64,000 nucleotides of DNA, from IMG/VR virus record IMGVR_UViG_3300027838_000002, positions 1 through 64,000 of that record; one strand, written 5' to 3'. Position 1 is the stretch's first letter, and the number at the start of each line of letters is the position of its first letter. The position numbers were made by a program, and so were the translations under genes. Of this stretch, positions 16,351 to 63,420 are shown piece after piece. Under the pieces are notes generated by a model, which was not told where the DNA came from, ran no database searches, and saw only the letters and a list, made by a program, of their open reading frames with translations. The stretch is from a virus (taxonomy: Duplodnaviria > Caudoviricetes).

Positions 16351-16462
16351 AAACACAGTCATCTTGTTACAAGCTACAACCTTGGTTACGCACCTGTGGC
16401 GTGTTACTGACCAGAAGTAAGGCTAGACGCAACATCTTTGGTACCCGCCAATCAACTGGTTA
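16351..16462 (-). ncRNA. degenerate TIGR-like array (3 units)
   Basis: 37-nt period kept (tgttacaagc/tggttacgcac/tgttactgac/aggctagacgc/tggtacccgc/tggtta); starts at stop of 16460 ORF. Confidence 0.65.
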
Positions 16463-17383
16463 CTGATTTCGACGGGCTCGTCGTAGTGCGCGCCGCGCTA
16501 CGCTTGTTGCCTCCTGCATCTCATCAGTTGTCTCTGTTGTCTCTGTTGAATTATCTTCCTCATCATCTGCCTGCGGGTCAAGAGCCGCGTTAACTGTTTC
16601 TCGAATACGGTTGCCTCGACTGGCGTTTGCCGTAGCCAAAGCAGCCAGTCTTTCCATTGTGATAATTACCTGATCCAGCTTTTCAGCAATTTGATCACCG
16701 TATTCCTCTGTGGGCATGGCCTCCAGCGATGCCAGGACGGAGTCATCTTCCCCGGCCCACACCGACGCGTTCTGCCTCTCCCACTTCTCGCAAACGGTTG
16801 TCATCTGATCTAGCCCGGCTGCGATAGTACGCGGCTGCTGGTAAGCGCGGCCGGGAGAGTTTGCCGGTCGCTGGTTAGCTGTATTCATATCTTTGACCAG
16901 CTTACCCAGCTCACGAGTTGAAAGGTTTTCCTGGCCAACTCGCTGCTGTAACTCCTCGCGTACGGTCTTATCGTGTATCGCTAGGAGAGTGGTGGTGTGC
17001 GTCCATGAAATGCCGATTTCTCGTAGCGCGTCGAACTCTGACTGTGTGTACTGCTGAGCGAAATCCAGGCACTTGTAGATAAGGCTCTCACCAATTGACC
17101 AAGCAGCCACCAATTTATCGATAGGCGCAGGTCCGTACGTTTCTTCGTTAGACGTCTCAATACTCGACAACTTGTTGCCAAGCGCGTAGTAGAAATCAAG
17201 GGTTTCCTTGAACTGCACCTCGGCGGTATCCAACATCTCGTCGTACTGCTGACGCAAATCTTCGTTCATCGAACGGATAGCGTCAATCTTCGCGTGATAC
17301 AGCTCCTGGGCCTCCGCACTGAGCTGCTCGACTGCCTCGGTCGTCTTCTCGTACTTAGCCAGTGGGTTCTCGTTCTTTGCCAT
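16460..17383 (-). CDS. DUF1016-N/ParB-HTH-like protein
   Basis: ISWTHTTTLL...ENLSTREL resembles LSWSHY...WSVREL. Confidence 0.55.
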   Translation of the reverse strand: MAKNENPLAKYEKTTEAVEQLSAEAQELYHAKIDAIRSMNEDLRQQYDEMLDTAEVQFKETLDFYYALGNKLSSIETSNEETYGPAPIDKLVAAWSIGESLIYKCLDFAQQYTQSEFDALREIGISWTHTTTLLAIHDKTVREELQQRVGQENLSTRELGKLVKDMNTANQRPANSPGRAYQQPRTIAAGLDQMTTVCEKWERQNASVWAGEDDSVLASLEAMPTEEYGDQIAEKLDQVIITMERLAALATANASRGNRIRETVNAALDPQADDEEDNSTETTETTDEMQEATSVARRALRRARRNQ

Positions 17384-18549
17384 TACTCCACTCCTGTTCG
17401 AACCATATAGTCGTGTGCCGTGCGCTCAACTCCCTCCCGCACCGGGATGGATAAACGTTGTGCTTCACGGGTTATAGCGTTGTACACATCAAACTGGGTA
17501 CGCTCCCGTATGACGCTATTACGGTGCGTAAGGTATTCCACATCGGTGTCAGGCTCCGCGCCGTAACTACCCACGTACACAGAGTGCTTAACAATATTTC
17601 GTGCCATGGCGTTGGTTACGGCCTTGGTATCGTATCGCAGGGATTGCGCCAGTGATTCCATTTGTCTCTTTAAAGCACCAGGCGTCTCGGGATCAAGGTC
17701 CAGGGTGCGCTTTGACATGGCTACCAAGGATGCACGTAGACGCGCGCTGTCGGTATCTGTCAGCAGTACCGACGAAACCAGATGGGACAGCTTGGCGGCA
17801 AAATCCTTACCCGTGTGAAACTGTCTCCCCGCCTCCTTAAGGTGGATCAGAGAACCAGTCCCGTCAAGCGCGCGGTAGATCAACGGCGCAGCGCGTACGC
17901 TGGCGTCGCCAGATTCACTGTTCGCAAAATGGTAACCGTAATAGAAGGCATCAGGCTCCTCGCCGTCTATCGTGATTAGTTCCTCTGTGTGCGTGTAACG
18001 CAGCATCAAGTGCCTGCCAGCTACCAGGCCTTCACAAAATTCCGTATCGACAGTGTCACCCAGCATGTCCTGTATCATCTGAAAGAGAGTCAGATTTTCA
18101 AGATACTGCGTCTTGGGCCCTAGCAATCCCTCTATGTGCCCATCCCGTTCATTGACGACAATCTGACACAAGGACAGGTCATCATCGAAACGTAGGTCCA
18201 CAATCGCGTTGAAAATACGGATGGCCTCTTTCTGCGAGAACGCCTCCCTAGAACTACGCGGCCTACGGTTGATACCGGCAATATTGGGCACCAGCAGCGA
18301 CAAGCCTGGTGCCACCGCCTGCGCCACGGAGTTGAACGCCGGAACGGTGTACCGGTTACCGTGCACCCTAGTCGTCCCGTTTGACTTCAGCATTAGCTCA
18401 TCAGCAGAGGATGGGGGGTAAATGACAGTACCCTCATCCGTCTCACGCAATTCCCGCTCCAGTTTGATTGGGCACGAGAACGACTTTTTACGGGGCTTCA
18501 CGTACAGACTAAGGCTATCCGTGCTGCTCCCACTCGTTACTGATGGCAT
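17383..18549 (-). CDS. DUF932-like protein
   Basis: FANSESGDASVRAAPLIYR, TQFDVYNAIT. Confidence 0.55.
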   Translation of the reverse strand: MPSVTSGSSTDSLSLYVKPRKKSFSCPIKLERELRETDEGTVIYPPSSADELMLKSNGTTRVHGNRYTVPAFNSVAQAVAPGLSLLVPNIAGINRRPRSSREAFSQKEAIRIFNAIVDLRFDDDLSLCQIVVNERDGHIEGLLGPKTQYLENLTLFQMIQDMLGDTVDTEFCEGLVAGRHLMLRYTHTEELITIDGEEPDAFYYGYHFANSESGDASVRAAPLIYRALDGTGSLIHLKEAGRQFHTGKDFAAKLSHLVSSVLLTDTDSARLRASLVAMSKRTLDLDPETPGALKRQMESLAQSLRYDTKAVTNAMARNIVKHSVYVGSYGAEPDTDVEYLTHRNSVIRERTQFDVYNAITREAQRLSIPVREGVERTAHDYMVRTGVE

Positions 18550-19063
18550 GAAGCAAAAAATCCAACTCGTCGTACGCGTATGTAACCCGCGGACTGACGT
18601 TACCGATCGTACGGGTAATTCTAGTCCACGATGTGCCTATGTCGATCAACTCTTCGTCAATCATGTAGTTGTGTAGCACCATGGTAGCTATCCCGGGCCA
18701 CCTGAAAATAACCCCGAACGCTTCCGATCGTGGATCAACGTCTAGTTCTTCGCAGGCGGACTCATACGCACGGAACGCCGTGGTCCGGGTGAACGATTTG
18801 TATATGTCCTCAACCAACATGTCCCGCAACCAATAGGCTTTTCTGGCTGTCAACCTGACGGGAAAGCTGGGGTACTCGTCATGAAACCACTCAAAGTTGA
18901 GGTCCCTGCGCCCCGTCGCCTCCTGGCAACGTTGGCGCAGGTTCTCAAGGTTGTAGATCAATCCGGTTTTCTGCATGACCTTCTTGACCATGCCGTCTTC
19001 CATTGACTGCTTGGTCCAGTTGCCTGCAGGCTCCTCGACTACATCATCCCACCCTACCATCAA
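18515..19063 (-). CDS. hypothetical protein
   Basis: coupled to RecA-like gene. Confidence 0.65.
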   Translation of the reverse strand: MMVGWDDVVEEPAGNWTKQSMEDGMVKKVMQKTGLIYNLENLRQRCQEATGRRDLNFEWFHDEYPSFPVRLTARKAYWLRDMLVEDIYKSFTRTTAFRAYESACEELDVDPRSEAFGVIFRWPGIATMVLHNYMIDEELIDIGTSWTRITRTIGNVSPRVTYAYDELDFLLHAISNEWEQHG

Positions 19064-40787: not shown

Positions 40788-40824
40788 AAAAAGAAGAGAC
40801 GGCCGGGTGTTACCCCGGCCGTCT
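40788..40824 (-). terminator. intrinsic terminator (copy 1)
   Basis: AGACGGCCGGGGTAACACCCGGCCGTCT-CTTCTTTTT. Confidence 0.8.
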
Positions 40825-40826: not shown

Positions 40827-40863
40827 CACGCTTCAATCGTGGTACTCGCAGACCATGTGGTTA
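40827..40863 (-). ncRNA. single TIGR-like unit
   Basis: TAACCA-CATGGTCT-GCGAGTACCA-CGATTGAA-GCGTG. Confidence 0.75.
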
Positions 40864-41384: not shown

Positions 41385-41421
41385 AAAAAGAAAAGACGGC
41401 CGGGTGTTACCCCGGCCGTCT
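41385..41421 (-). terminator. intrinsic terminator (copy 2)
   Basis: same hairpin as 40788 followed by T-tract. Confidence 0.8.
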
Positions 41422-41458
41422 CACGCTCGCGGCATGGTACTCACGTATACCGTGGTTA
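41422..41458 (-). ncRNA. single TIGR-like unit fused to the tasA stop codon
   Basis: TAACCA-CGGTATAC-GTGAGTACCA-TGCCGCGA-GCGTG. Confidence 0.8.
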
Positions 41459-42742
41459 CTCTTCAGAAGCTTCGTCCTCGGAGTCTTCGTCATCCACTTC
41501 CGGTGCCGGTGCCGGTGCCGGACGCGGAGCGTACAAGTCGCTAAGCGGCTTGCCACCCAGGTCGTCCGCAAGCGGGAAGTGCGGAATAGGGATGGTATGC
41601 GTGTGCGTACCATCGCCGTGCTCGATAATAAACGGCTTCGGAGGATCTTCCCCGTTGAGATCCACGTACATCACGTGATGTAGATGCGACATGAAGATCT
41701 TCACCGCATAACGGCGAGCACGCGCATGAATATGCGCCGGGGCAAGCATTACAACGCCGCTACCAGGTGCGCCCTCGTTCGTGTTGAGGTACGGCAACCG
41801 CTTGGCCTGGTCCAGTGCCAGCACCTTAAGCATGGTGTCTGCGGTGTAACAGCCTTTCATCCACTTGGTAGCATAGGCGTCATCACTACGCTTCTGCTTC
41901 GTCAGGATGCTTACTGCCTGGTCCGAAAACGCACCAGCCATATTACGCTCGACCTCCAGGGCCTTCCGAGCCTGGAACAAATGGCCGTAATCGCAGTCTT
42001 CGTGATTTTGAAACTTCACGAAGCACTCGCCCATCTTGAACGCACAAAGCGACTTAAGCTCAGCGTTCCACGGACGCGCAGCCAGGTACTTCTCCATAGC
42101 AGCATACTTCTTGTACTTGGCAAAGCCATCAGACCAAACCTGCTGCAGCCGGACAGGATTAACGTTACACAGCGACGACAACTCCGTAGCCAGCGGTAGC
42201 GAAAGGGTGCGCGCGGTCTTTTGCAGGTCGACCTGTTGCAACATGCTCTTCGCTTCCTCTTTGCCGTGCCAAGTGCGGGACGGATCCAAGCCAGCGAAGC
42301 GCCACCACTTGCCCACGGTGGGAGTATTCCTGATATCCAGGTGCGCCAACAACCCAGCAGTAATCACCGGACCGATACCGTGATTTGACAAACACCATCG
42401 TCCAGCTGCGTACGAGGCAGCAAACTCACCCAGCGCACGCTTGATGTCCTCTTCTGCACGCTTAATATTCGCCAGTCCCCAACAGATGACCTCGTTAGGC
42501 TCAGCGTGCTTCTCAGTCTGCCGCTGCTGGCCCCGAAAACGGATACGCACGTTCTGCATCTGGTAGTACATGTCTACCAGGAACCGCGCCTCCTCGGATC
42601 CAAGTTCCGTAGCGGCTTTCCGCAAATCGCTGTCAAGCCTTTCAAGCAGCTCCCACTGAGACGCATCCACGGTTTGGGCTTCAGTATTCTCGCTAGCATT
42701 ATCATCGTGTTCTGGCACATCAGGAAAATAAATTGAGCTCAT
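41456..42742 (-). CDS. TasA-like Nop-domain RNA-guided DNA-binding protein (IS110-related, no RuvC/HNH)
   Basis: LVDMYYQMQNVRI coiled coil; HGIGPVITAGLLAHLD; KWWRFAGLDP; RPWNAELKSLC; HIHARARRYAVKIFMSHL; guide unit at its stop. Confidence 0.85.
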   Translation of the reverse strand: MSSIYFPDVPEHDDNASENTEAQTVDASQWELLERLDSDLRKAATELGSEEARFLVDMYYQMQNVRIRFRGQQRQTEKHAEPNEVICWGLANIKRAEEDIKRALGEFAASYAAGRWCLSNHGIGPVITAGLLAHLDIRNTPTVGKWWRFAGLDPSRTWHGKEEAKSMLQQVDLQKTARTLSLPLATELSSLCNVNPVRLQQVWSDGFAKYKKYAAMEKYLAARPWNAELKSLCAFKMGECFVKFQNHEDCDYGHLFQARKALEVERNMAGAFSDQAVSILTKQKRSDDAYATKWMKGCYTADTMLKVLALDQAKRLPYLNTNEGAPGSGVVMLAPAHIHARARRYAVKIFMSHLHHVMYVDLNGEDPPKPFIIEHGDGTHTHTIPIPHFPLADDLGGKPLSDLYAPRPAPAPAPEVDDEDSEDEASEE

Positions 42743-43714: not shown

Positions 43715-43715
43715 A

Positions 43716-44620: not shown

Positions 44621-44689
44621 TCGACGATTTCCTGGTTACTTTCGCACCAGGCCTCGGCTGACGTGTCTACAGCGTCATCGCTTCTTTCG

Positions 44690-44956: not shown

Positions 44957-44999
44957 TTTCCATTCTCCATTATCGCGTGGCTGTAATTCGCATGATAAC

Positions 45000-45370
45000 A
45001 CACTCCCGCCTTTTGGTACTCTCCGTTCGCTTGGTTGCACGCTCCTGTGTTGGTACTCTCCGCCGCCCTGGTTACACGCTCGACAAGTGGAACTCGCTCA
45101 AGCCATGGTTGCACGCAATGAGGTTGGTACTCGCGGTGATGATGGTTGCACGCATACCTTCTGGTACTCGCAGTCATGCTGGTTGCACGCCAAAACTTTG
45201 GTACTCGCAGCTGGATTGGTTGCACGCGTGGTCTTTGGTACTCGCGAACGACTTGGTTGCACTCCCGTGCTATGGTACGCGCTCTTGAGTTGGTTGCACG
45301 CGGTTCAAATGGTACGCACGCCATCGCTGGTTGCACGCTCATAGTGTGGTACTCGCAGCCGTCACGGTTA
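45000..45370 (-). ncRNA. TIGR-like dual-repeat guide array 2 (10 x 37-nt units)
   Basis: same two repeats and 8-nt variable segments; starts at TAA of upstream gene. Confidence 0.9.
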
Positions 45371-47392: not shown

Positions 47393-47395
47393 CTG

Positions 47396-48692: not shown

Positions 48693-48704
48693 GTGTTTGG
48701 CTCC

Positions 48705-49766: not shown

Positions 49767-49849
49767 GCGTCACGACCCCATGAAAGCAACCCGCCGTACC
49801 CACAAGGGCACGGCGGGTTGTGAATCTGCATCTGACAATGTAACCCAGC

Positions 49850-51518: not shown

Positions 51519-51527
51519 TTTTGCGCG

Positions 51528-52223
51528 CTAACCTCCTGATGGGTTCAAGTTATAGATTGACACCGCGGGGTGTTCGTCTTCGGCATCGGGTAAGAAGTCC
51601 TCCAATACCAGGTCATTTAACGCGATGCGCGCTTTGCCTGCCATCTGGTCAGCTCCCCAGTTGAGTTCAACGGTGAGCCTTTCAATCCAGTGGTAGTGGA
51701 AAACAAAACCCTGTCGAGACAGGGCTTTCATGGACATCCACAGTGCACGGTTGGCAACAGATTCATTGCTCGCCAATTCCACCGCTGTCCCCTGGTTTGC
51801 TATCACACGACTGTCTGTTACGACGTGTACGTTTAGTGGGCGCTTTTTAGTACCATCTTTCGCAATCTGTCCGCTGTACCAAAGCATGGCATGCACGTAC
51901 GCCATGAGTTCGCCAACATTCACCGTACCGGAGTTCATCGCGCCATACAGCATCTTCCGTGAGCGCGATAAACGATCAATGAGAATACATGACCATCCGC
52001 AACCAATCCCCCAACCGTGCCCGGAACCATCACCAAATAACAGCACATCCCAGTCCCTGATGTTCAACTGATCAAGGACTACACTGAGTGGCGTTCTTTC
52101 AGGTTTCCGGTTCTTCTTCTGTCGTTTGCGGGATCGTTGCAGCAAGCTCTTCGAGAGTTGTGATTTTTCTCCCGAGGTCTTCGATGATCTTTTCTTTTTC
52201 CGTGATAGTTTCTTGGCGCTCAT
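51528..52223 (-). CDS. RNase HI-like protein (start uncertain)
   Basis: FGDGSG, VGELMA, VVTDS, NWGADQMA catalytic DEDD. Confidence 0.85.
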   Translation of the reverse strand: MSAKKLSRKKKRSSKTSGEKSQLSKSLLQRSRKRQKKNRKPERTPLSVVLDQLNIRDWDVLLFGDGSGHGWGIGCGWSCILIDRLSRSRKMLYGAMNSGTVNVGELMAYVHAMLWYSGQIAKDGTKKRPLNVHVVTDSRVIANQGTAVELASNESVANRALWMSMKALSRQGFVFHYHWIERLTVELNWGADQMAGKARIALNDLVLEDFLPDAEDEHPAVSIYNLNPSGG

Positions 52224-52569
52224 TAATGACCTTTGCTTGCTGATCAGCGGTTTCCCCTGCGGCGAAGAGTAATTCATGAAACTTGCTTGTTTGATACTCT
52301 AACGCTCGCACCATTCGATCTGTCACCAACAATATGTGGTGTGGTGACATGCCAACACCTTCTCGTGTTATGTATATTGCTGGCACCAATTCCTGCTGCG
52401 GTACGCTCCACGCAGGTACGACCGTCAGTACTTCCAATTCAGGCACGTCCTGAACTAGCTCACTGGCAAACTCGAACACGCGCCGAATGACTTCCTGGTC
52501 AAATCGTTCACGTTGTGCTGGAGACTCGTCCTTGGTAGTCTGTTGTTCTTCCGGCGTTTCTTCAGGCAT
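52099..52569 (-). CDS. hypothetical protein
   Basis: AGGAG SD. Confidence 0.65.
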   Translation of the reverse strand: MPEETPEEQQTTKDESPAQRERFDQEVIRRVFEFASELVQDVPELEVLTVVPAWSVPQQELVPAIYITREGVGMSPHHILLVTDRMVRALEYQTSKFHELLFAAGETADQQAKVINERQETITEKEKIIEDLGRKITTLEELAATIPQTTEEEPET

Positions 52570-52578
52570 ATTGCTCTC

Positions 52579-52896
52579 CTAGTATCTGAGATTTGCTGGG
52601 AGCACGGCATTCAGGACAGTCGATACCCTGAGTGCGGCGAGTCCGTAGATCGGGAGTTTTACGATATCGTCCCACGGACCCGGTAGGAAGCATGAAATCA
52701 GCAAAAGTAGGCAAAGCATCCACGCAACATGGTGCGACAAGCAGAACGGGCAATTGAACAGCTCAGCAAGCTTACTGCCCTGCTCTTCCTTGACTTCCAA
52801 ATATGCGCGCGTGCTGGCAAAAACGCTACCATTGAACCAGGTGTCACAAACCTGGCCAATGGACAGCGCAAGGCAGATCAGATCGAGAATTGACAC
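52579..52896 (-). CDS. DUF1360-like membrane protein
   Basis: ELFNCPFCLSHHVA between TM segments. Confidence 0.6.
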   Translation of the reverse strand: MSILDLICLALSIGQVCDTWFNGSVFASTRAYLEVKEEQGSKLAELFNCPFCLSHHVAWMLCLLLLISCFLPGPWDDIVKLPIYGLAALRVSTVLNAVLPANLRY

Positions 52897-52905
52897 GGCT
52901 ACCGC

Positions 52906-53112
52906 CTATTTGTGTCTCGATTGTTTGTATTCGTCATACGTGGCCATCGTGCGTTCACCGTTACCTTCTGCCCGATTATGCAACTTCAACAGAAGCCACA
53001 ACACAAGTACAATTGCAAAGACTGGCATCCCACTTCCACCTACCAGCATAAACCCGCCAACAACAAACCACACTGCTACCACCCAAAAACTGTTCAACTC
53101 AACTACCTCCAC
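52906..53112 (-). CDS. small membrane protein
   Basis: two TM segments, GGAGG SD. Confidence 0.55.
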   Translation of the reverse strand: MEVVELNSFWVVAVWFVVGGFMLVGGSGMPVFAIVLVLWLLLKLHNRAEGNGERTMATYDEYKQSRHK

Positions 53113-53308
53113 CCTCCTCGAACCAGGGGTCTGTTACTTGGTTAGTATCAGGCCCCGTCGTGTTGGTTAGCTCTGGAGGAAAACTTGTCGGATACGTGTG
53201 AATACGGTTACCGGACTCGTTGTACTCGGACGTTGGACCACGGCGAGTGTCCACGAGTCGTTTACGCTCACGGTACAGTCGAGCGCTTTTGCCGATATTG
53301 ACTGGCAT
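53099..53308 (-). CDS. hypothetical protein
   Basis: AAGG SD. Confidence 0.5.
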   Translation of the reverse strand: MPVNIGKSARLYRERKRLVDTRRGPTSEYNESGNRIHTYPTSFPPELTNTTGPDTNQVTDPWFEEGGGS

Positions 53309-53369
53309 GTTAAACCTTTCTACGGTTCAAAGAGGAGGATGCCGCGCACCCTTTAGTAGCGGCATATTA

Positions 53370-53621
53370 TCAATAATCCTCTTCGATTGTAACAATTTCC
53401 CGTACGATGGTCGTCCGACGTCGCTTAGGTTGTTGCGACCTAAGCTGCTGTCGATTTCGCGAGCGTCCCTGCTTCGCAAGTGGTTCCGACTTCTTACGTG
53501 AAAGTGCCTTGAACGGTGTCGTAACAACATCAACCGCCCAACTTGCTAAGAACTCGATTCCGTCTTCCAATCCCTGTAAATCTGACGGGCCCTCATTCTT
53601 GTAACGGGACAGATCGGACAT
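53370..53621 (-). CDS. hypothetical basic protein
   Basis: MSDLSRY with GAGGAGG SD. Confidence 0.55.
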   Translation of the reverse strand: MSDLSRYKNEGPSDLQGLEDGIEFLASWAVDVVTTPFKALSRKKSEPLAKQGRSRNRQQLRSQQPKRRRTTIVREIVTIEEDY

Positions 53622-55494
53622 GGTAACGTCCTCCTCTGCTTCACGGAACGTAGCCGACATCGTAGCATCGTTCCAAAATGATGTAACTGGAGCGCAAGAT
53701 CTCGGTCTACTGGAGCGCGTAGTTGGACTACGCTCCATGGCCGATCTCCGATGTCTACCCTCCATCGTCCCAATTTTGCCGCTACTGCTTAATCTGAAGG
53801 GAAAGCCGTATACTTTAGAGCAGCACTTCCCATTTAAGCAGTTGTTCCGGAACCACCAACCTCGGCGGGTGGTACTCAAAACGGGACGTCAGGTATCAAA
53901 ATCAACGAGCCTGGCAGCGCATGGAGTCGTCGTGTCGAATATGCACGACCACTTCTCCACGCTGTACATTACGCCATTGTACGAGCAGATTCGTCGATTC
54001 TCCAACAACTACGTACGACCATTTGTCGATGAAAGTCCGGTGAAAAATTCGTGGCTGGAGGGCGCGGGATCTGAGCAGTCTGTGCTCCAGCGCAGCTTCA
54101 AGAATAGATCCAGAATGATCTTCTCGTTCGCGCTACTAGACGCCGACCGCATACGTGGTATCCAGGCAGACAAGGTAGCGATTGACGAAGTGCAGGACAT
54201 GGACCCTGCGCACATCCCAATTATTCATGAAACCATGTCGGCATCTCCGCATGACCTTGCCCAATACACAGGAACCCCGAAGACATTGGACAACGCTATC
54301 GAAGGGCTGTGGCAGCAAAGTAGCCAAGCCGAATGGTTTATGCGCTGCAATAGCTGTAACACGTGGAATATTCCTTCGATGGATTACCACGTGGACAAAA
54401 TGATCGGGCCAGTCCGCGAAGACATCAGCGCCGATAATCCCGCGGTGGTGTGCTACTCTTGCCAAAAATCCCTCCACCCCAGGCAAGGACGATGGGTGCA
54501 TCGCTACCCTGACAAGCGGTGGGATTTTGCAGGGTACCATGTGCCTCAGATCATAATGCCGCTTCACTATTCCAATGCCGACAAATGGTCAACTCTGCTC
54601 GGTAAGCGTGACGGCTGGGGCAGCACGTCACCAAATATCTTCTACAACGAAGTACTGGGTGAAAGCTACGATGTTGGCCAGAAACTGGTCAGTCTATCGG
54701 AGCTCAAAAAAGCTGCATCGTTGCCGTGGAAAAACAATCCGGATGAGCCCGATCCGCAGGCACTTAGCTCGGCGAAGCAGTATGCAAACCTGGTGCTGGC
54801 AATTGACTGGGGCGGTGGTGGAATAGAGGGTGTCAGCTTCACTACTATCGCCGTGCTGGGATGGTCAAGTGGGAAGATTGACTGCCTATGGGGTAAGCGA
54901 CTACTGACTCCGCATGATCACGTCGGCGAAGCAATGGAGTGCCTCAAGTGGTTCAAGACGTTCGGTTGTCAATACATCGCTCATGACTACACAGGTGCTG
55001 GCACCGTACGTGAGACGATCATGGTGCAACAGGGTTTCCCTATCAGTCGCCTGCTGCCAATATCCTACGTGCGCGCCGCCACACATGCGCCCATGTATCA
55101 CGTACCAGCAACAGTGTTACACCCTCGGGATCATTACCGGGTAGACAAGACCCGAACGCTCCTGTACACCACCACGTCTATCAAGCTGGGCCATATACGA
55201 TTCTTCCAGTACGACCACGAAAACGTCGATAATCCTGGCCTACTCCACGACTTCCTGGCCCTGGTGGAAACGAAGACCGCATCACGGCAAGCCAGTGACA
55301 TCTACACGATCACCAGGGCTGCCGGTGTATCCGATGACTTCGCGCAGGCTATGAACATCGGATGTGCTTCGCTTTGGCACGTCACTCAATCCTGGCCAAA
55401 GTTTGCAGGGGCAGCGCCGCTCACATCAGCTCAGGTTGAGGCGGCAACAGACAGGCGAGAGGATGTGATGGGCGGCTACGGGGCTATTCCATAA
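53620..55494 (+). CDS. terL: terminase large subunit (GpA-like)
   Basis: KTGRQVSKST Walker A, RIRG..AIDEVQD Walker B, TGTPKT, CNSC/CYSC, nuclease AIDWGGG and DDFAQA. Confidence 0.9.
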   Translation: MVTSSSASRNVADIVASFQNDVTGAQDLGLLERVVGLRSMADLRCLPSIVPILPLLLNLKGKPYTLEQHFPFKQLFRNHQPRRVVLKTGRQVSKSTSLAAHGVVVSNMHDHFSTLYITPLYEQIRRFSNNYVRPFVDESPVKNSWLEGAGSEQSVLQRSFKNRSRMIFSFALLDADRIRGIQADKVAIDEVQDMDPAHIPIIHETMSASPHDLAQYTGTPKTLDNAIEGLWQQSSQAEWFMRCNSCNTWNIPSMDYHVDKMIGPVREDISADNPAVVCYSCQKSLHPRQGRWVHRYPDKRWDFAGYHVPQIIMPLHYSNADKWSTLLGKRDGWGSTSPNIFYNEVLGESYDVGQKLVSLSELKKAASLPWKNNPDEPDPQALSSAKQYANLVLAIDWGGGGIEGVSFTTIAVLGWSSGKIDCLWGKRLLTPHDHVGEAMECLKWFKTFGCQYIAHDYTGAGTVRETIMVQQGFPISRLLPISYVRAATHAPMYHVPATVLHPRDHYRVDKTRTLLYTTTSIKLGHIRFFQYDHENVDNPGLLHDFLALVETKTASRQASDIYTITRAAGVSDDFAQAMNIGCASLWHVTQSWPKFAGAAPLTSAQVEAATDRREDVMGGYGAIP

Positions 55495-55495
55495 A

Positions 55496-55718
55496 ACACG
55501 CGCGGTAGTTGGTACTCGCGAGGAGTTTGGTTACACACCAATATCATGGTACTCACTCAGAACTTGGTTGCACGCAGCTAGCATGGTACTCGCCTCTGCC
55601 GTGGTTGCACGTGCTTCTTTTGGCACTCTCCCCGCACCTGGTTGCACATTCCCCTATTGGTACTCTTCTCGAACCTGGTTGCACGCACGCAGATTGGTAC
55701 TCGCTCGTGGTTTGGTTA
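55496..55718 (-). ncRNA. TIGR-like array 3 (6 units)
   Basis: 37-nt period; abuts terL stop convergently. Confidence 0.9.
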
Positions 55719-55814
55719 CTGCTTCCTGCGCCCGTACCTACAGATGATCAGCGTCGTTATCACGACACAGGCACAGATGAGCAGGGTCTTCAGGACTTCA
55801 GGTGAAACACACAT
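55716..55814 (-). CDS. 32-aa single-pass membrane peptide inside the array
   Basis: MCVSPEVLKTLLICACVVITTLIICRYGRRKQ; its TAA is part of edge repeat TAACCA. Confidence 0.5.
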   Translation of the reverse strand: MCVSPEVLKTLLICACVVITTLIICRYGRRKQ

Positions 55815-55955
55815 CTACTATGGTACTCGCAAGTTTTGTGGTTGCACGCATCGATCGTGGTACTCGCGTCGATGGTGGTTGCACGCGCTTCTTTTGGTAC
55901 TCGCGCGACGCCTGGTTGCACGCGATACGCATGGTACTCGCTCGATCAATGGTTA
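55807..55955 (-). ncRNA. TIGR-like array 4 (4 units)
   Basis: 37-nt period; starts at TAA of 55953 ORF. Confidence 0.9.
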
Positions 55956-56570
55956 TTGACACCATTCGGAATCCCAGATCATCTCCACATTCTCACCGTG
56001 CAGGATTCCAGTGGGTGAGATGTACGGGCGCCCCAGCCCGATCAGGTCTTCGTACGAGACCTTGAGCCGCTTCTCGGGGTCGCTGGCTACCACTAGTTCC
56101 GAGCAATACAGCGCTTTCACGCCCAGCTCGAACTTGTTGTCGTAGTCCAGGCCCTCAAACGTCAGGCAGGTTTCGACGACCTTCTTGACATACTCGCCAT
56201 CCCAGTCCGTACAGCGCAGGATGACAACCCTGTCTGCCTCGTGGCAGATGTCGTAGAACTCGGACTTCTTGTAGCCGACGCGTGTCATTTCGGCAACTTC
56301 GAAGCCGCGCTCTGGTGACTTGCTGAGGCACAGCGCAGCGTGAGGCAGTTCCCCCGGGATGATGAAGCTGGTGAGCTTCCAGTTGTCCTTGGTCAGGAGA
56401 ATGTCACCTACGCGCAGCAGCTCAAAGCCTTCCCGGTACGTGAAGCCGCGGATGGCGCTGTAGTACGTGTTGAAACGCACGTACGGGATCTTGTCGAGGA
56501 TCCAGTTGTAGAGCCATGTTTCCATGGCCCAGAAGGCAAATCGTGACCAGAGGCTACGTAAGAGTTGCAT
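55953..56570 (-). CDS. permuted papain-like NlpC/P60 (YiiX/YebB-like) hydrolase
   Basis: LRVGDILL..IPGELPHAAL..GLDYD..LYCSELV (His before Cys). Confidence 0.85.
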   Translation of the reverse strand: MQLLRSLWSRFAFWAMETWLYNWILDKIPYVRFNTYYSAIRGFTYREGFELLRVGDILLTKDNWKLTSFIIPGELPHAALCLSKSPERGFEVAEMTRVGYKKSEFYDICHEADRVVILRCTDWDGEYVKKVVETCLTFEGLDYDNKFELGVKALYCSELVVASDPEKRLKVSYEDLIGLGRPYISPTGILHGENVEMIWDSEWCQ

Positions 56571-56574
56571 AGAT

Positions 56575-56834
56575 TCACGCTGCTATTGTGGTACTCGCTG
56601 ATATCATGGTTGCACGCATTTCTATTGGTGCTCGCCCAGGCACTGGTTGCACGCTTGTTTTTTGGTACTCGCGCGGGTCCAGGTTGCGCGCCGTCTTCAT
56701 GGTACTCGCTGCTGGATTGGTTGCACGCTGTGATCGTGGTACACGCGGGTCTGTTGGTTGCACTCTGGGACCGTGGTACTCGCGCCGAGTTTGGTTGCAC
56801 GCAGATATGTTGGTACTCACCAATACTATGGTTA
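56575..56834 (-). ncRNA. TIGR-like array 5 (7 units)
   Basis: 37-nt period; starts at TAA of 56832 ORF. Confidence 0.9.
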
Positions 56835-59741
56835 GAACTCGTCGTCAGGAGGTACTTCGTTGTACCACCCTTCGGCTTCCGCTACGTCAAAATCACTCTG
56901 GGCGTTGTCGTCAGTTTCTTCCGTGGCCTCGTCGTCTGACTCATCGTCTTCCACGACGTCAAAGTTGTCCTCGCGTAGTCTGTCGTCGGGCATTGGGGCT
57001 CCTCCGTAATTTTTTGCTTTATGACGAGAATCGCGATCGCTGAGAATCTCGGTCCACCAGAGCTTGTCCACCCACCAGTGCTCGGCGTCGTCCCGAATAA
57101 GCACCCCTGCGCTGTGCATCTCCTGCGATAGCCGCACCATGTCTAATAACGGTATCTCGGGTACGGTGACAAGACTATTTATGCGTTTCTTGCTCACCCT
57201 GACGTGCTCACCTGATACCGCTATGGCTGGCGCGTGACTCTGTTCGAATTCTTCGTTGATCGTTGTCAGCTTACCTGACACCAATCCGTGGTACACCAGC
57301 TCTGCGAAGTAGTCTAGCGGGTCCGGCGCAGAGTCTAACAACGCCGCCGCTTGACGAAATACCGTGTCGTCATTGGTCAGGTCCCCGAACCATGCTGACA
57401 TATCCGCGAGCACCGACTCCACGTACGAGCCTGTGTACGTTAAACGAAAGCGGCGGGCCGCCAGGTGCTGTATGTACGCGGGTAAAATTGGCGCGCCCAC
57501 ACGTTGCAGCGTTCCGCCGACTGAAGGTGCACCATCTACATGGATCAGGTTCCAGCCACCGTTGATCATCAACGCCTGTGCGTGCTGCGGCAACAGATCA
57601 ACTATGGCGTTCTTTGCGTCAGGGTGCTGTAGCCAGTCTGCTAGCAGCTTGTTCTTGTACTTGTCACAGCGCAGGTATACCGGCCACTGGTGCCGTACAA
57701 TGGCTGCCGAATTTTTGGCAACAACTCTCTTGAAAGCCCCAAGCGCACTGACATCAGTGGTGATGCAGCCCAGGCTGGTGGCAGTAGCAGCCCCCAGCGA
57801 GGTAGCTGCAGCTCCTAGAAGTACCAACCCCCTGCGATCTTGATGGAGTACCTCTGCAAGCAGATTACTGGTGATGTGTGCTGCGGTCGCCCAGAATACT
57901 GCGGATGATTGACTGGACGCGCCCAGTGTTTTCAGCGTCTCGTGTGGAATATTCCCGGGGGCCTGTAGATCACGTGCCGGTGTCATTTCAGTCAGGGTAT
58001 ACCAGGCGTCTTGCTCTAAGACGTGTCCGCCAGGGTGTACCTCGAACCGTGGAAACACGAAGCGGTCGTCTACCCACCCAAACGACTCGATCCCTTTGTT
58101 CGATGTTGGTTCGTGGAAACCTTGTGCCAGTCCCAACAGGTGTTGCGACCAACGTGGCTGTATGTTGGGACGACCCATGCCGTGGCGGGCGAGCAGGTTG
58201 CGCAGCCAGGCGCCTGTTTTATTCTCCATAACGCTAGCCAGCTCAGCGAATTCAATAACCTGCTCGTCACGAGTGACGTTTCCGCGATACTCCGTTACGT
58301 TTTCGTCAGGGTAGTAAACTACGTTCTCCAGTCGAATGATCGTGTCGGATAAAATCTCGCCGGAAGCTAGCGTCCAGTGTCCGTCCTTTTCGAGAACGGT
58401 CTTACCGTTTATGGCTATGCTGCGGTGCTTTTCCTTACCCGCGGTCTTTATCTTCTGCAGCTTGTTACATATCGCTTCGCTGCACTGCTGCATAAACCGC
58501 GCCAACTCTACGTCTGACATGTTTAGGTACAGCAGCAGATTCTCACATTCAGCGAGCTCCATCTTTTCCAGCTCGGTTTCCAGCACGTCTTCCCAGGCCC
58601 GCGACTGCCGCACCATCCGCTCCAGCCACTCAACTGGACGACGCCTACTCACGTCGTCAGGAAGGGCACGCAGAGAGTCACTCACAGCAATGCGTCCCTT
58701 GGCGCACATAGCCTGTTGTATCAGCTCCGGACTTAATTCCGGTGCCCAAATGATGTAGTCGCGGTGGGCTGCATTCTTCCACACGTGCCTGTTCGAGATA
58801 CGCCCGTCTATGATTGACCCACATATCGGGAGAGGGGTGTTATTGTCCCGGAGGTGCCGCAGCTGTAGTTTCAACGCTGTGACCGGGTCGTTCAGTACGA
58901 AAGTTGTTGATCCAAACTTCTTGTGTTCGATCGTCAAGGTCTCGTACATAGAGAGCCCTGAATCCCATATCGGGGCCTGATCCTTGGTTTCGAACTGGTG
59001 CGAAACCACTGGAACACGTTTGAATACAAAGTCGTCCGGAGCCTCGGCATCCCTTCCGATAAACATGAACGCGTGGATCTTGCCGGGGGCCGTGTAGAAC
59101 GGGATGACAAGCACGTCGGCCCAATCCTTACCCTTGAATACACGGCCACGCCCAGCGTTGAGCGAGTCGCCTTTTTTGAGACGGTTTGTGCACATCGTGT
59201 GGTGCAGCGCCATGCGTACGTCGTTAGCGTGGCAGCCACCCAGGAACCTCCCGGCACGCTCAAACCAGGTGGACGTCGGAGTTGCCGCTCGTCCAACTAG
59301 TTTCTGGCACAGTTCTACCATCTGTTCGGTGTCCTGCAGCGGAAGGCGTTTTTGCGCGGACTCCCACATATCTTGCAGGCGCTGACGGTGCCGTATGTGC
59401 GCTTCCTCGTATTTTTCCACAGCGATGGGATCCAACACCTTCGAGATTACCGCGATCCCCTGATCACGCAATTTTCGAAAAACGTTGACGGGGTCTAACC
59501 CCCAGGCTTTTCCGGCCAATTCCACCGTATCGCCCGTAAACTGGCACGCGGAGCAGTAGTGCCATTCGCCACCTGATATACTATCCTTGTAGACACGAAG
59601 GCCCTGCTGTCGGCATAATGGGCAGCAACACACAGTTGGTAATACCTTTACCGGTATTTCCACGCCCAGTAAGGGCAGAACCTGGTCCCAGCTAATATGG
59701 TAGTTGAGACTGCAGACTCTCGTGCTTTTGGAGAATGACAT
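56832..59741 (-). CDS. large protein with primase-type Zn finger and DUF927-like segment
   Basis: CCCPLC..WHYCSACQFTGDTVEL; GIESFGWVDDRFVFP; no intact TOPRIM or Walker motifs seen. Confidence 0.55.
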   Translation of the reverse strand: MSFSKSTRVCSLNYHISWDQVLPLLGVEIPVKVLPTVCCCPLCRQQGLRVYKDSISGGEWHYCSACQFTGDTVELAGKAWGLDPVNVFRKLRDQGIAVISKVLDPIAVEKYEEAHIRHRQRLQDMWESAQKRLPLQDTEQMVELCQKLVGRAATPTSTWFERAGRFLGGCHANDVRMALHHTMCTNRLKKGDSLNAGRGRVFKGKDWADVLVIPFYTAPGKIHAFMFIGRDAEAPDDFVFKRVPVVSHQFETKDQAPIWDSGLSMYETLTIEHKKFGSTTFVLNDPVTALKLQLRHLRDNNTPLPICGSIIDGRISNRHVWKNAAHRDYIIWAPELSPELIQQAMCAKGRIAVSDSLRALPDDVSRRRPVEWLERMVRQSRAWEDVLETELEKMELAECENLLLYLNMSDVELARFMQQCSEAICNKLQKIKTAGKEKHRSIAINGKTVLEKDGHWTLASGEILSDTIIRLENVVYYPDENVTEYRGNVTRDEQVIEFAELASVMENKTGAWLRNLLARHGMGRPNIQPRWSQHLLGLAQGFHEPTSNKGIESFGWVDDRFVFPRFEVHPGGHVLEQDAWYTLTEMTPARDLQAPGNIPHETLKTLGASSQSSAVFWATAAHITSNLLAEVLHQDRRGLVLLGAAATSLGAATATSLGCITTDVSALGAFKRVVAKNSAAIVRHQWPVYLRCDKYKNKLLADWLQHPDAKNAIVDLLPQHAQALMINGGWNLIHVDGAPSVGGTLQRVGAPILPAYIQHLAARRFRLTYTGSYVESVLADMSAWFGDLTNDDTVFRQAAALLDSAPDPLDYFAELVYHGLVSGKLTTINEEFEQSHAPAIAVSGEHVRVSKKRINSLVTVPEIPLLDMVRLSQEMHSAGVLIRDDAEHWWVDKLWWTEILSDRDSRHKAKNYGGAPMPDDRLREDNFDVVEDDESDDEATEETDDNAQSDFDVAEAEGWYNEVPPDDEF

Positions 59742-60906
59742 GGACGTCGTGCTCGATCAAATCCAAGATACAACTGGCCGCGAGATCCATCGACTTACTT
59801 CACTTTACCCGCCTCCGGATTTCGTAAAAACTGCTTCTCATGATAACATCTGCGGCACATCTAAAGCATTGCCAGCCCATCTCTATGGCGATGCGATTAA
59901 GCGAACATACCCGTGCCACAACCCCGCGGCAACCTGGATGAGTGCAGCTTTCTTCGGTGACAAACAGGCTAGCTACAACCAAGACAACTCACAGCGTATC
60001 AAGAGTAACATTTTACGTTGCGCTATTTACTACGGTATTGGCGGGCAAGTCACCGCGCTCATGGACAAGATTGCGACTGACAGCAACGACACGATGGAAT
60101 CGCTGCCAGATTCTGATTTCGCCTGGGTGTGGTTACAAGACGACGGACGAAAAGAACGCCACCTGCCCCTGCGCAATGCGCATGAGATCAAAGCGGCAGC
60201 CGACTATCTTGTAAGCTATCGTGACGAATTTGTGTTCGACGATCGCCACAAAATGTCGGAAAAGATCATCAAGAAGGCGCACGCCCACGGCGTGACCGTG
60301 AACGAAGACGTGCTAAAGCAGGCTGGGCACGGCCACTGCTCCATCAAGGCGGCTGCCCGCTTTCTACGTGATCGCGCACGGATTATCAAGAACGCAGAGA
60401 TTGCCGACCAGCTGATCAAAACAGCTGTAGCGATTGAACAGTGTCCGGCCAACTCTCGTGAGCATATGTTGAAGCTCGCGAAAACAGTATCCGACATCGA
60501 CCAGGAATTTGGTATCCACCGTGACTACAGTGCGGCAGTACCAAGACCCGAGGATGCCTTGTTCGGAATTACCGAGATGACAATAAAAACCGCGCACTCC
60601 GCACACATTCCGATGACTAGTGGTGCCATCTACAAATTGGCCGATTTGGCCGGGGTCAAGCTGCAAGACGTGCGTGATTGGATGGGTAGCGAGCTTGCTG
60701 ACGAAGTCAGCGCTGGCGGGTTACTCGTTGATCAGGAAAAACTGGCTGAGATCTTGCCAACCCTGCCCCGCGAAGATGCTGAACTGTTTGAGCGCATGCT
60801 CAACAAGAACGGGATTAACCCGTTCGCGAAGGAGGCATCATCCGAAGAGCAGGGCTTGAGCAAGCAAGATCTGTTCAAGATCGCAGCTGGTTACGTCGAG
60901 AACTGA
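59740..60906 (+). CDS. hypothetical protein, possibly virion/head-associated
   Basis: GGAG SD; same strand as terL; recurring K-x-A motifs. Confidence 0.6.
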   Translation: MDVVLDQIQDTTGREIHRLTSLYPPPDFVKTASHDNICGTSKALPAHLYGDAIKRTYPCHNPAATWMSAAFFGDKQASYNQDNSQRIKSNILRCAIYYGIGGQVTALMDKIATDSNDTMESLPDSDFAWVWLQDDGRKERHLPLRNAHEIKAAADYLVSYRDEFVFDDRHKMSEKIIKKAHAHGVTVNEDVLKQAGHGHCSIKAAARFLRDRARIIKNAEIADQLIKTAVAIEQCPANSREHMLKLAKTVSDIDQEFGIHRDYSAAVPRPEDALFGITEMTIKTAHSAHIPMTSGAIYKLADLAGVKLQDVRDWMGSELADEVSAGGLLVDQEKLAEILPTLPREDAELFERMLNKNGINPFAKEASSEEQGLSKQDLFKIAAGYVEN

Positions 60907-63056: not shown

Positions 63057-63329
63057 TCAGCCCTCCACTCGTTTTAAGATGTCCCACAGTTTGCATATCG
63101 CTGCACCCCCTGATCCGGAGTGCGCGAGCGCATCCCATTCGACTGGCGCTTCGTCTCTTGCCTTTCGCAGCAAGTTTAAGCAATCGCTTGCGAGCAAGGC
63201 ATCCATCGGTATATTCTTCTGCAATCCCAATGCATCAGCGACACGCGCTATCTCGCTGATGAGCTTGGGTACCGCTCCTCCGTAAAATTGCTGGCCCATG
63301 GCCGTCTGAAAAAACTCTGGTCCCGCCAT
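63057..63329 (-). CDS. hypothetical protein
   Basis: FFQTAMGQQFY..VPKLI; AGGAG SD. Confidence 0.65.
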   Translation of the reverse strand: MAGPEFFQTAMGQQFYGGAVPKLISEIARVADALGLQKNIPMDALLASDCLNLLRKARDEAPVEWDALAHSGSGGAAICKLWDILKRVEG

Positions 63330-63341
63330 CTGGTTCTCCTA

Positions 63342-63377
63342 AACAAATACCCCGACCTCCACGAAGGGAGGCCGGGG
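63342..63377 (-). terminator. intrinsic terminator
   Basis: CCCCGGCCTCCC-TTCG-TGGAGGTCGGGG-TATTTGTTT. Confidence 0.6.
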
Positions 63378-63420
63378 CGGCTACACGCAAGCCTGATGGT
63401 ACTCGTCGGGACTATGATTA
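63378..63420 (-). ncRNA. single TIGR-like unit
   Basis: TAATCA-TAGTCCCG-ACGAGTACCA-TCAGGCTT-GCGTGTAGCCG, followed by terminator. Confidence 0.7.

What the first reader, a model, noticed from the sequence alone, without database searches (positions are those of the whole stretch)
16351..63420. Arrays begin exactly on the stop codon of the upstream gene (TAA supplies the half edge repeat TAACCA)
Seen: in 8 of 9 loci the first half-edge is the gene's own stop: CAG-TAA-CCA (16460), GAG-TAA-CCA (40861, 41456), TTC-TAA-CCG (45368), CAG-TAA-CCA (55716), CAA-TAA-CCA (55953), TTC-TAA-CCA (56832), TTC-TAA-TCA (63418). Array 1 starts 7 nt after a TAG. Most arrays end on the other half, G(C/T)GTG. Inference: guides are processed out of polycistronic mRNA 3' UTRs without a dedicated promoter. 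The units may therefore also act as mRNA processing sites, or may insert site-specifically at TAACC sequences.
Basis: partly seen in the sequence, partly recalled or inferred. Interest (0 to 1): 0.8.

Follow-up and report, generated by a model that had tools for sequence, protein, structure and literature searches.

The report
Phage guide-RNA arrays fused to stop codons
In this marine phage, small arrays of guide RNAs of the known TIGR-Tas system start exactly on the stop codon of the gene in front of them, an arrangement that is common in related phages and mirrors how archaeal C/D box guide RNAs ride on the ends of messenger RNAs.

Summary
Confirmed. The 82,979-bp virus record holds 42 dual-spacer TIGR units of 37 nt at 9 loci, all on the minus strand. 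At 8 of the 9 loci, the TAA in the first half edge (TAACCA, TAACCG or TAATCA) is the in-frame stop of the upstream ORF. One of those ORFs is the nuclease-less Tas gene. Position 1 is T in 9 of 9 first units but in only 6 of 33 internal units.

The pattern is not peculiar to this phage. I sorted 69 distinct tas 3' junctions from 80 related viral loci by eye. In 44 of them the stop codon overlaps or abuts the first repeat. At least 12 non-tas ORFs in 9 lineages show the same thing.

Best reading: the arrays are promoter-less cassettes in 3' UTRs or between cistrons, co-transcribed with the upstream gene. Coding sequence can run right up to box C because only the 3' half of the first edge repeat is needed.

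[quoted passage not shown] Insertion at TAACC sites is not supported. No RNA ends were mapped. This scan had noted the same feature before on other phage DNA (e1-6112045, e1-6101556, e1-6026266, e1-5895815).

The parts
8908..9240 (-). TIGR array 1, 9 units. It starts with TAACCA 7 nt after the TAG of ORF 9248-9925, and is the one array not fused to a stop.
9248..9925 (-). Upstream ORF of array 1 (225 aa). No family hit.
16352..16462 (-). TIGR array 2, 3 degenerate units. Its TAA (16462-16460) is the stop of the ParB-HTH-like ORF.
16460..17383 (-). Upstream ORF of array 2 (307 aa). Weak DUF1016_N and ParB HTH matches, both below the Pfam cut-off.
40827..40863 (-). TIGR array 3, a single unit. 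Its TAA is the stop of ORF 40861-41265 (134 aa).
40797..40824 (-). Intrinsic terminator directly after unit 3 (11 pairs, 9 G-C).
41422..41458 (-). TIGR array 4, a single unit. Its TAA is the stop of the tas gene.
41393..41422 (-). Intrinsic terminator directly after unit 4 (12 pairs, 9 G-C). Nearly the same hairpin as the one after unit 3.
41456..42742 (-). tas gene (428 aa). Coiled coil plus Nop domain, with no nuclease domain in the model.
45001..45370 (-). TIGR array 5, 10 units. Its TAA in TAACCG is the stop of ORF 45368-46069 (233 aa).
55497..55718 (-). TIGR array 6, 6 units. Its TAA is the stop of a 32-aa hydrophobic ORF.
55716..55814 (-). 32-aa ORF. Its ATG overlaps the last half edge of array 7 and its TAA is position 1-3 of array 6. 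Whether it is a real gene is not shown.
55808..55955 (-). TIGR array 7, 4 units. Its TAA is the stop of the Peptidase_C92 amidase gene.
55953..56570 (-). Amidase-like gene (205 aa, Pfam PF05708, E 3.9e-12). It starts 5 nt after the last half edge of array 8.
56576..56834 (-). TIGR array 8, 7 units. Its TAA is the stop of the 969-aa ORF.
56832..59741 (-). 969-aa ORF upstream of array 8. No Pfam or PHROG hit.
63384..63420 (-). TIGR array 9, a single unit. Its TAA in TAATCA is the stop of a 413-aa ORF that runs on to 64659 of the record, beyond the window.
63349..63378 (-). Intrinsic terminator 6 nt after unit 9 (12 pairs, 9 G-C).

Best explanation
The nine arrays are dual-repeat TIGR guide cassettes without promoters of their own. 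They are embedded in the phage's long minus-strand operons and transcribed as the 3' UTR or the intercistronic part of the upstream gene's mRNA.

One guide's edge motif is composite. Box C (CCA) comes from the guide's own 5' half edge, and box D (UG) comes from its own 3' half edge. The 5' half of the first edge repeat is therefore dispensable, and coding sequence can run right up to box C.

In this lineage the retained half edge is [C/T]AACCA. A T at position 1 turns it into TAA-CCA. The ORF then ends on the first three bases of the first guide, with no spacer.

This is the limit of compaction in a tightly packed phage genome. [quoted passage not shown]

Shown: the anatomy, the frame relation, and its recurrence in relatives. 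Inferred: co-transcription. Open: what happens to the mRNA at that boundary, that is, whether it is cut, trimmed or left joined.
For: Anatomy: 42 units share one 37-nt plan, [C/T]AACCA, N8, GCGAGTACCA, N8, GCGTG. Internal repeats hold no stop codon in any frame.

Junctions in the window:
- 8 of 9 first units supply the in-frame TAA.
- Position 1 is T in 9 of 9 first units against 6 of 33 internal units.

The effector is a Tas protein:
- The sequence profile hits TasR (9mty) at E 8.6e-21 and TasH at 2.4e-7.
- The ten best structural matches are all TasH or TasR chains, probability 1.00.
- The model has pLDDT 81.8.

Transcription context:
- Single units lie between a stop codon and a strong terminator at 3 loci.
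- No promoter-like site lies upstream of any array on the minus strand: 10, 3 and 1 sites found in the three scans against 13.9, 6.6 and 2.6 expected.
- The genome is compact. The median gap between adjacent minus-strand ORFs is 2 nt, and 28 of 59 pairs overlap or abut.

Relatives:
- Of 69 distinct tas 3' junctions from 79 loci with a tas ORF (80 fetched), sorted by eye, 44 have the stop overlapping or abutting the first repeat. Four have a gap of 1-30 nt, 5 are unclear, and 16 have no array within 60 nt.
- An automatic phase test could score 42 of the 69. It puts the stop 6-7 nt before spacer A in 16 of them, where about 2.3 are expected.
- Non-tas ORFs show the same in L005, L069, L063 (two ORFs), L012 (three), L072, L013, L025, L022 and L008.
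- Tas proteins at 77-93% identity all end on the same ...SEE.
- Contigs of two other runs keep tas, unit and terminator without gaps (records 1 and 7).

RNA: one contig of an RNA library (55910-56188, no differences) bridges the amidase stop and array 7.

Literature:
- A quarter of archaeal C/D box sRNA genes carry the upstream stop, about half of those in box C, and most need no promoter (PMC7994747, passage seen).
- Pyrobaculum has 23 such cases (PMC6009581, passage seen).
Against: There are no mapped RNA ends and no transcription start data.

- The RNA-library contig may be DNA carry-over, and contigs cannot show the strand.
- The promoter scan covers only the sigma-70 consensus, the host is unknown, and only 580 nt upstream of array 9 lie in the window.
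- Array 1 keeps T at position 1 although its TAA is out of frame. The stop function alone therefore does not explain all nine T's.
- Pure compaction would predict a spread of small gaps rather than 8 of 9 at the one maximal overlap.
- In relatives some arrays start after hairpins in intergenic DNA (three of six in L063), so the fusion is not obligatory.
- The 44 of 69 count was made by eye, and many loci are related lineages.
- In the phase test, two of the 16 hits (L029, L030) rest on doubtful anchors, and two clear cases (L023, L040) were mis-phased.
[quoted passage not shown] That leaves it unclear how a first or a lone unit with half edges matures.
Confidence: 0.6

Rival explanations
1. 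Functional coupling rather than mere compaction. The stop codon sits inside the first guide so that making the guide's 5' end, by Tas or by a Tas-dependent host RNase, cuts the mRNA at its stop codon. The cut mRNA then lacks a stop and is handled as such. This would feed back on tas and on seven other genes.
For: - Eight of 9 junctions sit at exactly the same maximal overlap.
- SpTasH cuts pre-tigRNA within the edge repeat through Y289 and H296, and unprocessed ends impair DNA cleavage (PMC13421893, passages seen).
- The His is invariant in this family: H380 in 37 of 37 sequences.
Against: - The Tyr of the dyad is Phe (F371) in this Tas and in 22 of 37 relatives. TaTasR, which has Trp there, does not itself catalyse the cut.
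- Published minimal arrays needed full edge repeats to be processed, which suggests half edges are not cut.
- Relatives also have arrays that are not fused to stops.
- No RNA data exist.
Confidence: 0.15
2. Genes were inserted into pre-existing arrays at edge repeats, rather than arrays being appended to genes. On this view arrays 8, 7 and 6 are one former 17-unit array, split by the amidase gene and the 32-aa ORF.
For: - Both ORFs are flanked by a 5' half edge upstream (GCGTG or GTGTG) and by TAACCA downstream.
- One contig of run X14 joins 55593 to 55839 with 8 letters between. That would fuse arrays 6 and 7 and drop the 32-aa ORF.
- Unit number differs between strains: 2 units fewer in array 6 in X18, and a 185-nt (5-unit) skip in array 8 in X12.
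Against: - Arrays 2, 5 and 9 follow genes that have no array or half edge on their 5' side. Arrays 3 and 4 are separated from the next gene by a terminator and a ribosome-binding site.
- A C-to-T change would still be needed to make the stop.
- The X14 joint is a single low-depth contig laid at 85% likeness, and it could come from another array.
Confidence: 0.15
3. Units or arrays insert site-specifically at TAACC sequences, and only insertions at stop codons survive.
For: - T is present at position 1 even in array 1, where it is not a stop.
- Units 3 and 4 share the same module, made of GAAGAG-TAACCA, scaffold, terminator and ribosome-binding site. They sit behind unrelated genes and carry wholly different spacers, so the modules can be copied.
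- How arrays arise is unknown.
Against: - Thirteen TAACCA sites on the same strand are empty, one of them at the end of a 118-aa ORF.
- There is no shared right flank and no target-site duplication.
- Relatives build the stop into different edge sequences and use TAG and TGA as well.
- No integrase-like activity is linked to Tas in this window.
Confidence: 0.06

Closest known systems
Dual-repeat TIGR-TasA systems, including tasParB-tasA operons (Faure et al. 2025, Science, PMC12045711; passages read, supplements not seen)
   Same: - Alternating edge and loop repeats with two short spacers per unit.
- A Nop-domain Tas protein without a nuclease.
- Arrays start on a 5' truncated edge, end on a 3' truncated edge, and are often followed by a terminator.
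- Arrays may lie between genes of an operon.
   Different: - The unit is 37 nt with 8-nt spacers.
- There are nine loci spread over 55 kb, eight of them behind genes other than tas.
- The first half edge supplies the upstream stop codon. The main texts I queried do not mention this: 'stop codon' occurs 0 times in Faure 2025.
[quoted passage not shown] 2017 as summarised in PMC7994747; Lui et al. 2018, PMC6009581; passages read)
   Same: - Guide RNAs are bound by a Nop-family protein.
- Most have no promoter of their own and are cut out of longer transcripts.
- The upstream gene's stop codon lies inside the guide's 5' box C region.
   Different: - Those are single sRNAs that guide 2'-O-methylation together with L7Ae, Nop5 and fibrillarin. 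Their stop is usually the UGA of box C itself.
- Here the guides are tandem DNA-targeting guides of a phage. The stop is TAA just 5' of the CCA box, and no L7Ae or fibrillarin gene was looked for.
Intragenic tigRNAs within the tas coding sequence (Xu et al. 2026 preprint, 10.64898/2026.09.09.750476; sections 5 and 10 and passages read)
   Same: Guide units overlap coding sequence at gene ends, and a link between guide maturation and translation is proposed.
   Different: That report is mainly about stem-loop arrays inside tas itself. Here dual-repeat arrays touch only the stop codon, and mostly that of genes other than tas.
Bacterial sRNAs derived from mRNA 3' UTRs that share the mRNA's terminator (recalled, no paper read here)
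   Same: The single units 3, 4 and 9 lie between a stop codon and the terminator of the mRNA.
   Different: Those sRNAs act by Hfq-dependent base pairing with RNA. These are protein-bound DNA guides.

Membership tests
TIGR-Tas (dual-repeat) | Tas protein with a Nop domain | tested here: met
   - phmmer against 9mty_A (TasR): E 1.2e-8.
- Profile A1 against TasR: 8.6e-21; against TasH: 2.4e-7.
- Foldseek top 10 are all TasH or TasR chains, probability 1.00, TM (target) 0.51-0.69.
TIGR-Tas (dual-repeat) | Array of alternating edge and loop repeats of 8-12 nt with about 9-nt spacers, and a unit of about 36 nt | tested here: met
   There are 42 units. The edge is GCGTG[C/T]AACCA (11 nt) and the loop is GCGAGTACCA (10 nt). 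The two spacers are 8 nt each and the period is 37 nt. The unit is one nt longer and the spacers one nt shorter than the published norm.
TIGR-Tas (dual-repeat) | Box C (CCA) at the end and box D (UG) at the start of both repeats | tested here: inconclusive
   CCA ends both repeats: unit positions 4-6 in 37 of 42 units (C 41, C 42 and A 38 of 42 at the three positions) and positions 22-24 in 37 of 42. UG is in the edge (positions 36-37, 40 of 42). The loop has AG in the corresponding place.
TIGR-Tas (dual-repeat) | Array begins with a 5' truncated edge and ends with a 3' truncated edge followed by a terminator | tested here: met
   Nine of 9 arrays begin on the 3' half edge and 8 of 9 end on the 5' half edge. 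Strong terminators follow 3 of 9.
TIGR-Tas (dual-repeat) | Units are processed into guides of about 36 nt bound by Tas | not testable with these tools
   Only contigs of an RNA library were available. There are no small-RNA data.
TIGR-Tas (dual-repeat) | Tyr/His processing dyad in the C-terminal loop of the Nop domain, as in SpTasH Y289/H296 | tested here: not met
   The His is present (H380, 37 of 37 sequences). The Tyr position is Phe in this Tas (F371; across the family F 22, Y 14, W 1). The alignment to TasH over this stretch is weak (1.7 bits), but it places H268, R278, R286, E292 and K293 as numbered in PMC13421893.
Archaeal C/D box sRNA genes overlapping ORF 3' ends (works like; not a member) | Stop codon of the upstream ORF lies in or beside box C of the guide | tested here: met
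   TAA lies directly 5' of CCA in 8 of 9 arrays.
Archaeal C/D box sRNA genes overlapping ORF 3' ends (works like; not a member) | Single guide with C, D', C' and D boxes that directs 2'-O-methylation with L7Ae, Nop5 and fibrillarin | not tested
   The Pfam Nop model itself finds nothing in the record. L7Ae and fibrillarin were not searched. The units are tandem and of TIGR type.

The most novel reading that the evidence does not exclude
The stop codon built into the first guide may be a switch. When Tas, or a host RNase that it recruits, makes the 5' end of the first guide, it severs the mRNA at its own stop codon. Guide maturation would then convert the tas mRNA and seven other phage mRNAs into messages without a stop, which are rescued and degraded. 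Alternatively, an uncuttable half edge would leave a Tas particle parked on the mRNA's 3' end. Either way the guide system would regulate phage gene expression in cis, beyond targeting foreign DNA.
Probability: 0.15. Interest if true: 0.75.

Novelty: new variant of a known kind. Interest (0 to 1): 0.5.

Why it matters
TIGR-Tas is a recently described family of RNA-guided systems. How its arrays are expressed, how they mature at their ends, and how they arise are all stated to be open.

This work adds three points:
- Arrays routinely start on the stop codon of the gene in front. That holds for tas in many lineages, and here for seven other genes across the genome.
- This gives a concrete, testable model of expression, namely guides as 3' UTR cargo of ordinary mRNAs.
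- It also gives a defined place to ask whether half edges are cut.

The finding strengthens the evolutionary parallel with C/D box guide RNAs, whose genes do the same.

For annotation, it means array finders should look directly behind stop codons anywhere in a phage genome, not only within a few kb of tas.

Tried and rejected
Close relatives for an empty-versus-filled comparison could not be fetched:
- The repeat pattern scan of viral contigs gave only 2 chance hits.
- Single-protein scans with Tas in viral contigs and metagenome contigs, and with the 969-aa protein in viral contigs, gave nothing.
- The phage collection gave nothing by megablast or by tblastn.
So the DNA around the 77-93% identical Tas proteins P0003-P0011 was not seen; only their C-termini were.

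Looking for Tas:
- The Pfam Nop model found nothing in the record.
- PDB searches with three 225-235-aa ORFs next to arrays 1 and 5 gave nothing meaningful.

Other attempts:
- Exact 8+8 matches of the 42 guides to the record outside the arrays: 0 found, against a null mean of 0.07. Self-targeting was therefore dropped.
- A column-consensus pipeline for array starts failed on arrays with period slips, and a chain-based one mis-set several first units. I therefore classified junctions by eye and added the simpler phase test.
- The RNA run X19 covers 10 of 30 bins and none of arrays 3-6 and 8. Nothing is inferred from the uncovered parts.
- The joints 45153>55912 (X12) and 45227>55876 (X18) are probably arrays of other strains laid on the repeats, not rearrangements.
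- Complex prediction, the protein-atlas search, the search of protein representatives and the RNA-model tools were not used.
- Chance as the explanation is rejected on the figures given in the observation check.

Not in print, as far as I could check:
- 'stop codon' occurs 0 times in the main text of Faure 2025.
- It occurs once, in a figure legend, in the Xu preprint.
- It occurs 0 times in the 'Asymmetric' preprint.
- Of the 51 papers listed, I queried only four. That term was asked of three of them; the NAR paper was queried with other terms only.
- Supplements were closed. Figures S4-S6 and S14 of Faure 2025 and the Extended Data of Xu et al. may show such junctions.


Full report
**What is there.** The window is the first 64 kb of an 82,979-bp IMG/VR virus record. 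Runs that hold it are marine or seawater metagenomes. Nearly all long ORFs lie on the minus strand.

On that strand there are 42 units of 37 nt at nine loci. They share one plan: [C/T]AACCA, 8 variable nt, GCGAGTACCA, 8 variable nt, GCGTG. A profile of the 42 units finds all of them and nothing else in the whole record; the 5 other rows have E >= 2.1.

[quoted passage not shown] It has an 11-nt edge (GCGTG + [C/T]AACCA), a 10-nt loop and 8-nt spacers (Faure 2025, passages).

**The Tas protein.** The effector is ORF 41456-42742 (428 aa). The evidence:
- It hits a PHROG 'transposase' family.
- It matches the TasR chain 9mty_A at E 1.2e-8 alone and at 8.6e-21 as a profile, and TasH at 2.4e-7.
- Its model (pLDDT 81.8, all helical) has TasH and TasR chains as its ten best structural matches.
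- No nuclease domain is seen, so it is TasA-like.

**The observation.** In eight of nine arrays the first six bases are TAACCA (TAACCG at 45370, TAATCA at 63420), and the TAA is the first in-frame stop of the upstream ORF.

The upstream ORFs are:
- 307 aa (16460-17383)
- 134 aa (40861-41265)
- 428 aa (tas)
- 233 aa (45368-46069)
- 205 aa (a Peptidase_C92 amidase)
- 969 aa (56832-59741)
- 413 aa (63418 to 64659 of the record)
- a 32-aa hydrophobic ORF (55716-55814). Its ATG overlaps the last half edge of array 7.

Array 1 is the exception. Its TAACCA lies 7 nt after a TAG and is out of frame.

**Is it more than chance?**
- Position 1 is T in 9 of 9 first units and in 6 of 33 internal units.
- Internal repeats contain no stop in any frame, so the T is a specific change.
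- The sequences upstream of the nine junctions are unrelated.
- All eight stops are TAA, where TAA ends 33 of 78 minus-strand ORFs.
- Of 25 TAACCA on this strand, 7 start arrays, 5 are internal and 13 are elsewhere. Only one of the 13 ends an ORF of 100 aa or more.

**Context in the window.**
- The three single units (40863, 41458, 63420) are each followed within 0-6 nt by a strong intrinsic terminator. Each unit therefore lies between the stop codon and the end of the transcript.
- No sigma-70-like site lies upstream of any array on the minus strand, and such sites are not enriched at all. This is weak evidence, because the host and its promoters are unknown.
- The genome is tightly packed. 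The median gap between adjacent minus-strand ORFs is 2 nt.
- Array 3' ends are less regular. They end in a terminator, in 21-45 nt with a ribosome-binding site, in 5 nt before the amidase ATG, or in an ATG that overlaps the half edge.

**Relatives.** No close relative's DNA could be fetched (closed). A profile of 37 Tas homologs brought in 80 viral loci with Tas at 34-42% identity.

Seventy-nine loci have a tas ORF, giving 69 distinct 3' junctions. I sorted these by eye:

| Class | Count |
|---|---|
| Stop codon overlaps or directly abuts the first repeat block | 44 |
| Gap of 1-30 nt | 4 |
| Unclear | 5 |
| No array within 60 nt | 16 |

Twenty-six of the 44 are of the window's type: the stop lies inside a 5' truncated edge, followed by 8 nt and then the loop. 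The stop is adapted to each lineage's own edge. Forms seen are TAA-CCA/G, TAA-GCCA, TAA-GTCA, TAA-TCCG, TAG-CCA/G, TGA-GCCA, and AAGCC[A/G]-TGA.

An automatic phase test could score 42 of the 69. Eleven had no edge anchor and 16 had none within 62 nt. It places the stop 6 or 7 nt before spacer A in 16 of them, where a uniform phase gives about 2.3. Two of those 16 rest on doubtful anchors, and two clear cases were mis-phased.

Genes other than tas show the same thing:
- L005: a 270-aa ORF
- L069: a 409-aa ORF
- L063: 96-aa and 60-aa ORFs
- L012: 118-aa, 98-aa and 43-aa ORFs
- L072, L013, L025, L022 and L008: smaller ORFs

The fusion is not obligatory. In L063 three of six arrays start after hairpins. 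Several Tas proteins end at the same conserved motif but are followed by a terminator instead.

**Strain variation.** Contigs of three other DNA runs were laid on 40500-60400.
- tas, its unit and the terminator are kept without gaps at about 2.5% divergence (record 1) and nearly unchanged (record 7).
- The number of units varies. Array 6 has two fewer in X18. Array 8 has a 185-nt skip in X12. Array 7 has a backward joint of about one unit in X12.
- One low-depth X14 contig joins arrays 6 and 7 across the 32-aa ORF.
- Tas proteins at 77-93% identity all end on ...SEE.
- One contig of an RNA library (55910-56188, identical) bridges the amidase stop and the first unit of array 7. It cannot show strand or ends and may be DNA.

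**How it most likely works.** A TIGR guide's edge motif is made from its own two ends (Faure 2025, Figure 6 legend passage). [quoted passage not shown]

Coding sequence can then run right up to box C. A T at position 1 makes the stop. Together with the terminators and the absence of spacing, this makes the arrays 3' UTR or intercistronic cargo of ordinary mRNAs.

The same organisation is documented for archaeal C/D box sRNAs:
- A majority of their genes overlap a neighbouring ORF.
- A quarter carry the upstream stop codon, and about half of those carry it in box C.
- Most need no promoter (PMC7994747).
- 23 cases are reported in Pyrobaculum (PMC6009581).

**What stays open** is the fate of the boundary.
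- SpTasH cuts within edge repeats through Y289 and H296, and needs mature ends for activity. That would predict a cut at the stop codon.
- On the other hand, minimal arrays needed full edge repeats to be processed.
- This Tas has Phe at the Tyr position. Its His is invariant.

**Insertion at TAACC** is not supported. See the rival explanations.

**Novelty.** The TIGR papers I could query do not mention stop codons at array starts. Supplements were closed. The scan itself has noted the same feature on at least four other phage genomes.

I rate this as a new variant of a known kind. It is well supported as an observation, of moderate interest, and offers a clear experiment.

Noticed in passing
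window 40780-40870 and 41375-41465 (minus strand): Units 3 and 4 sit in the same module: GAAGAG-TAACCA, loop, GCGTG, a near-identical 24-nt hairpin terminator, then GGAGGAGAG and a start codon. The two modules lie behind unrelated genes. Their two spacers differ at 6 of 8 positions each. The scaffold has therefore been copied while the spacers were replaced or diverged much faster.
   Followed up: partly
window 8908-9240 versus 45001-45370; also 56723 versus 45222: Arrays 1 and 5 share three related units (9166/45074, 9203/45185, 8981/45111) that differ by a few bases in the spacers. One unit of array 8 shares a near-identical spacer A (7 of 8 nt) with one of array 5, but spacer B differs. Guides are thus duplicated between distant arrays.
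   Followed up: no
window 43964-44620 (minus strand): An HNH_3 + NUMOD4 + HTH protein, a homing-endonuclease type, lies just downstream of the largest array. A promoter-like site (44998..44969) sits at the array's end.
   Followed up: no
window 41456-42742, Tas residues 371 and 380: The position aligned with the catalytic Tyr of SpTasH is Phe here (across the family F 22, Y 14, W 1 of 37). The His is invariant. The model is all helical with a 170-residue helical insertion and no nuclease domain.
   Followed up: partly
window 55494-55497: Array 6 ends 3 nt from the stop of the convergent large terminase gene (53620-55494, plus strand), and no terminator was found between them. Minus-strand transcription would therefore run antisense into the terminase gene.
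   Followed up: no
window 55716-56570: An amidase (Peptidase_C92) and a 32-aa hydrophobic peptide with a basic tail are interleaved with arrays 8, 7 and 6. They may form a small lysis-type cassette. One strain contig appears to lack the peptide ORF.
   Followed up: partly
L012:8525-8550 and the other L012 arrays: A 130-kb viral record has many mini-arrays of 1-4 units between small ORFs. Its edge consensus itself contains TAA (GCGTAACCA). Before one array there are three TGA codons, one in each frame, within 14 nt.
   Followed up: partly
whole record outside the arrays: None of the 42 guides has an exact two-spacer match elsewhere in the 82,979-bp record. The targets are therefore presumably foreign: other phages or the host.
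   Followed up: yes
window 49850-50845 and 16460-17383: There are two ParB-like proteins. One has DUF6551, GmrSD_N and ParBc_2 matches; the other has a weak ParB HTH match. The second is the gene fused to the degenerate array 2. Published TasA loci are sometimes in operons with a parB-like gene.
   Followed up: no
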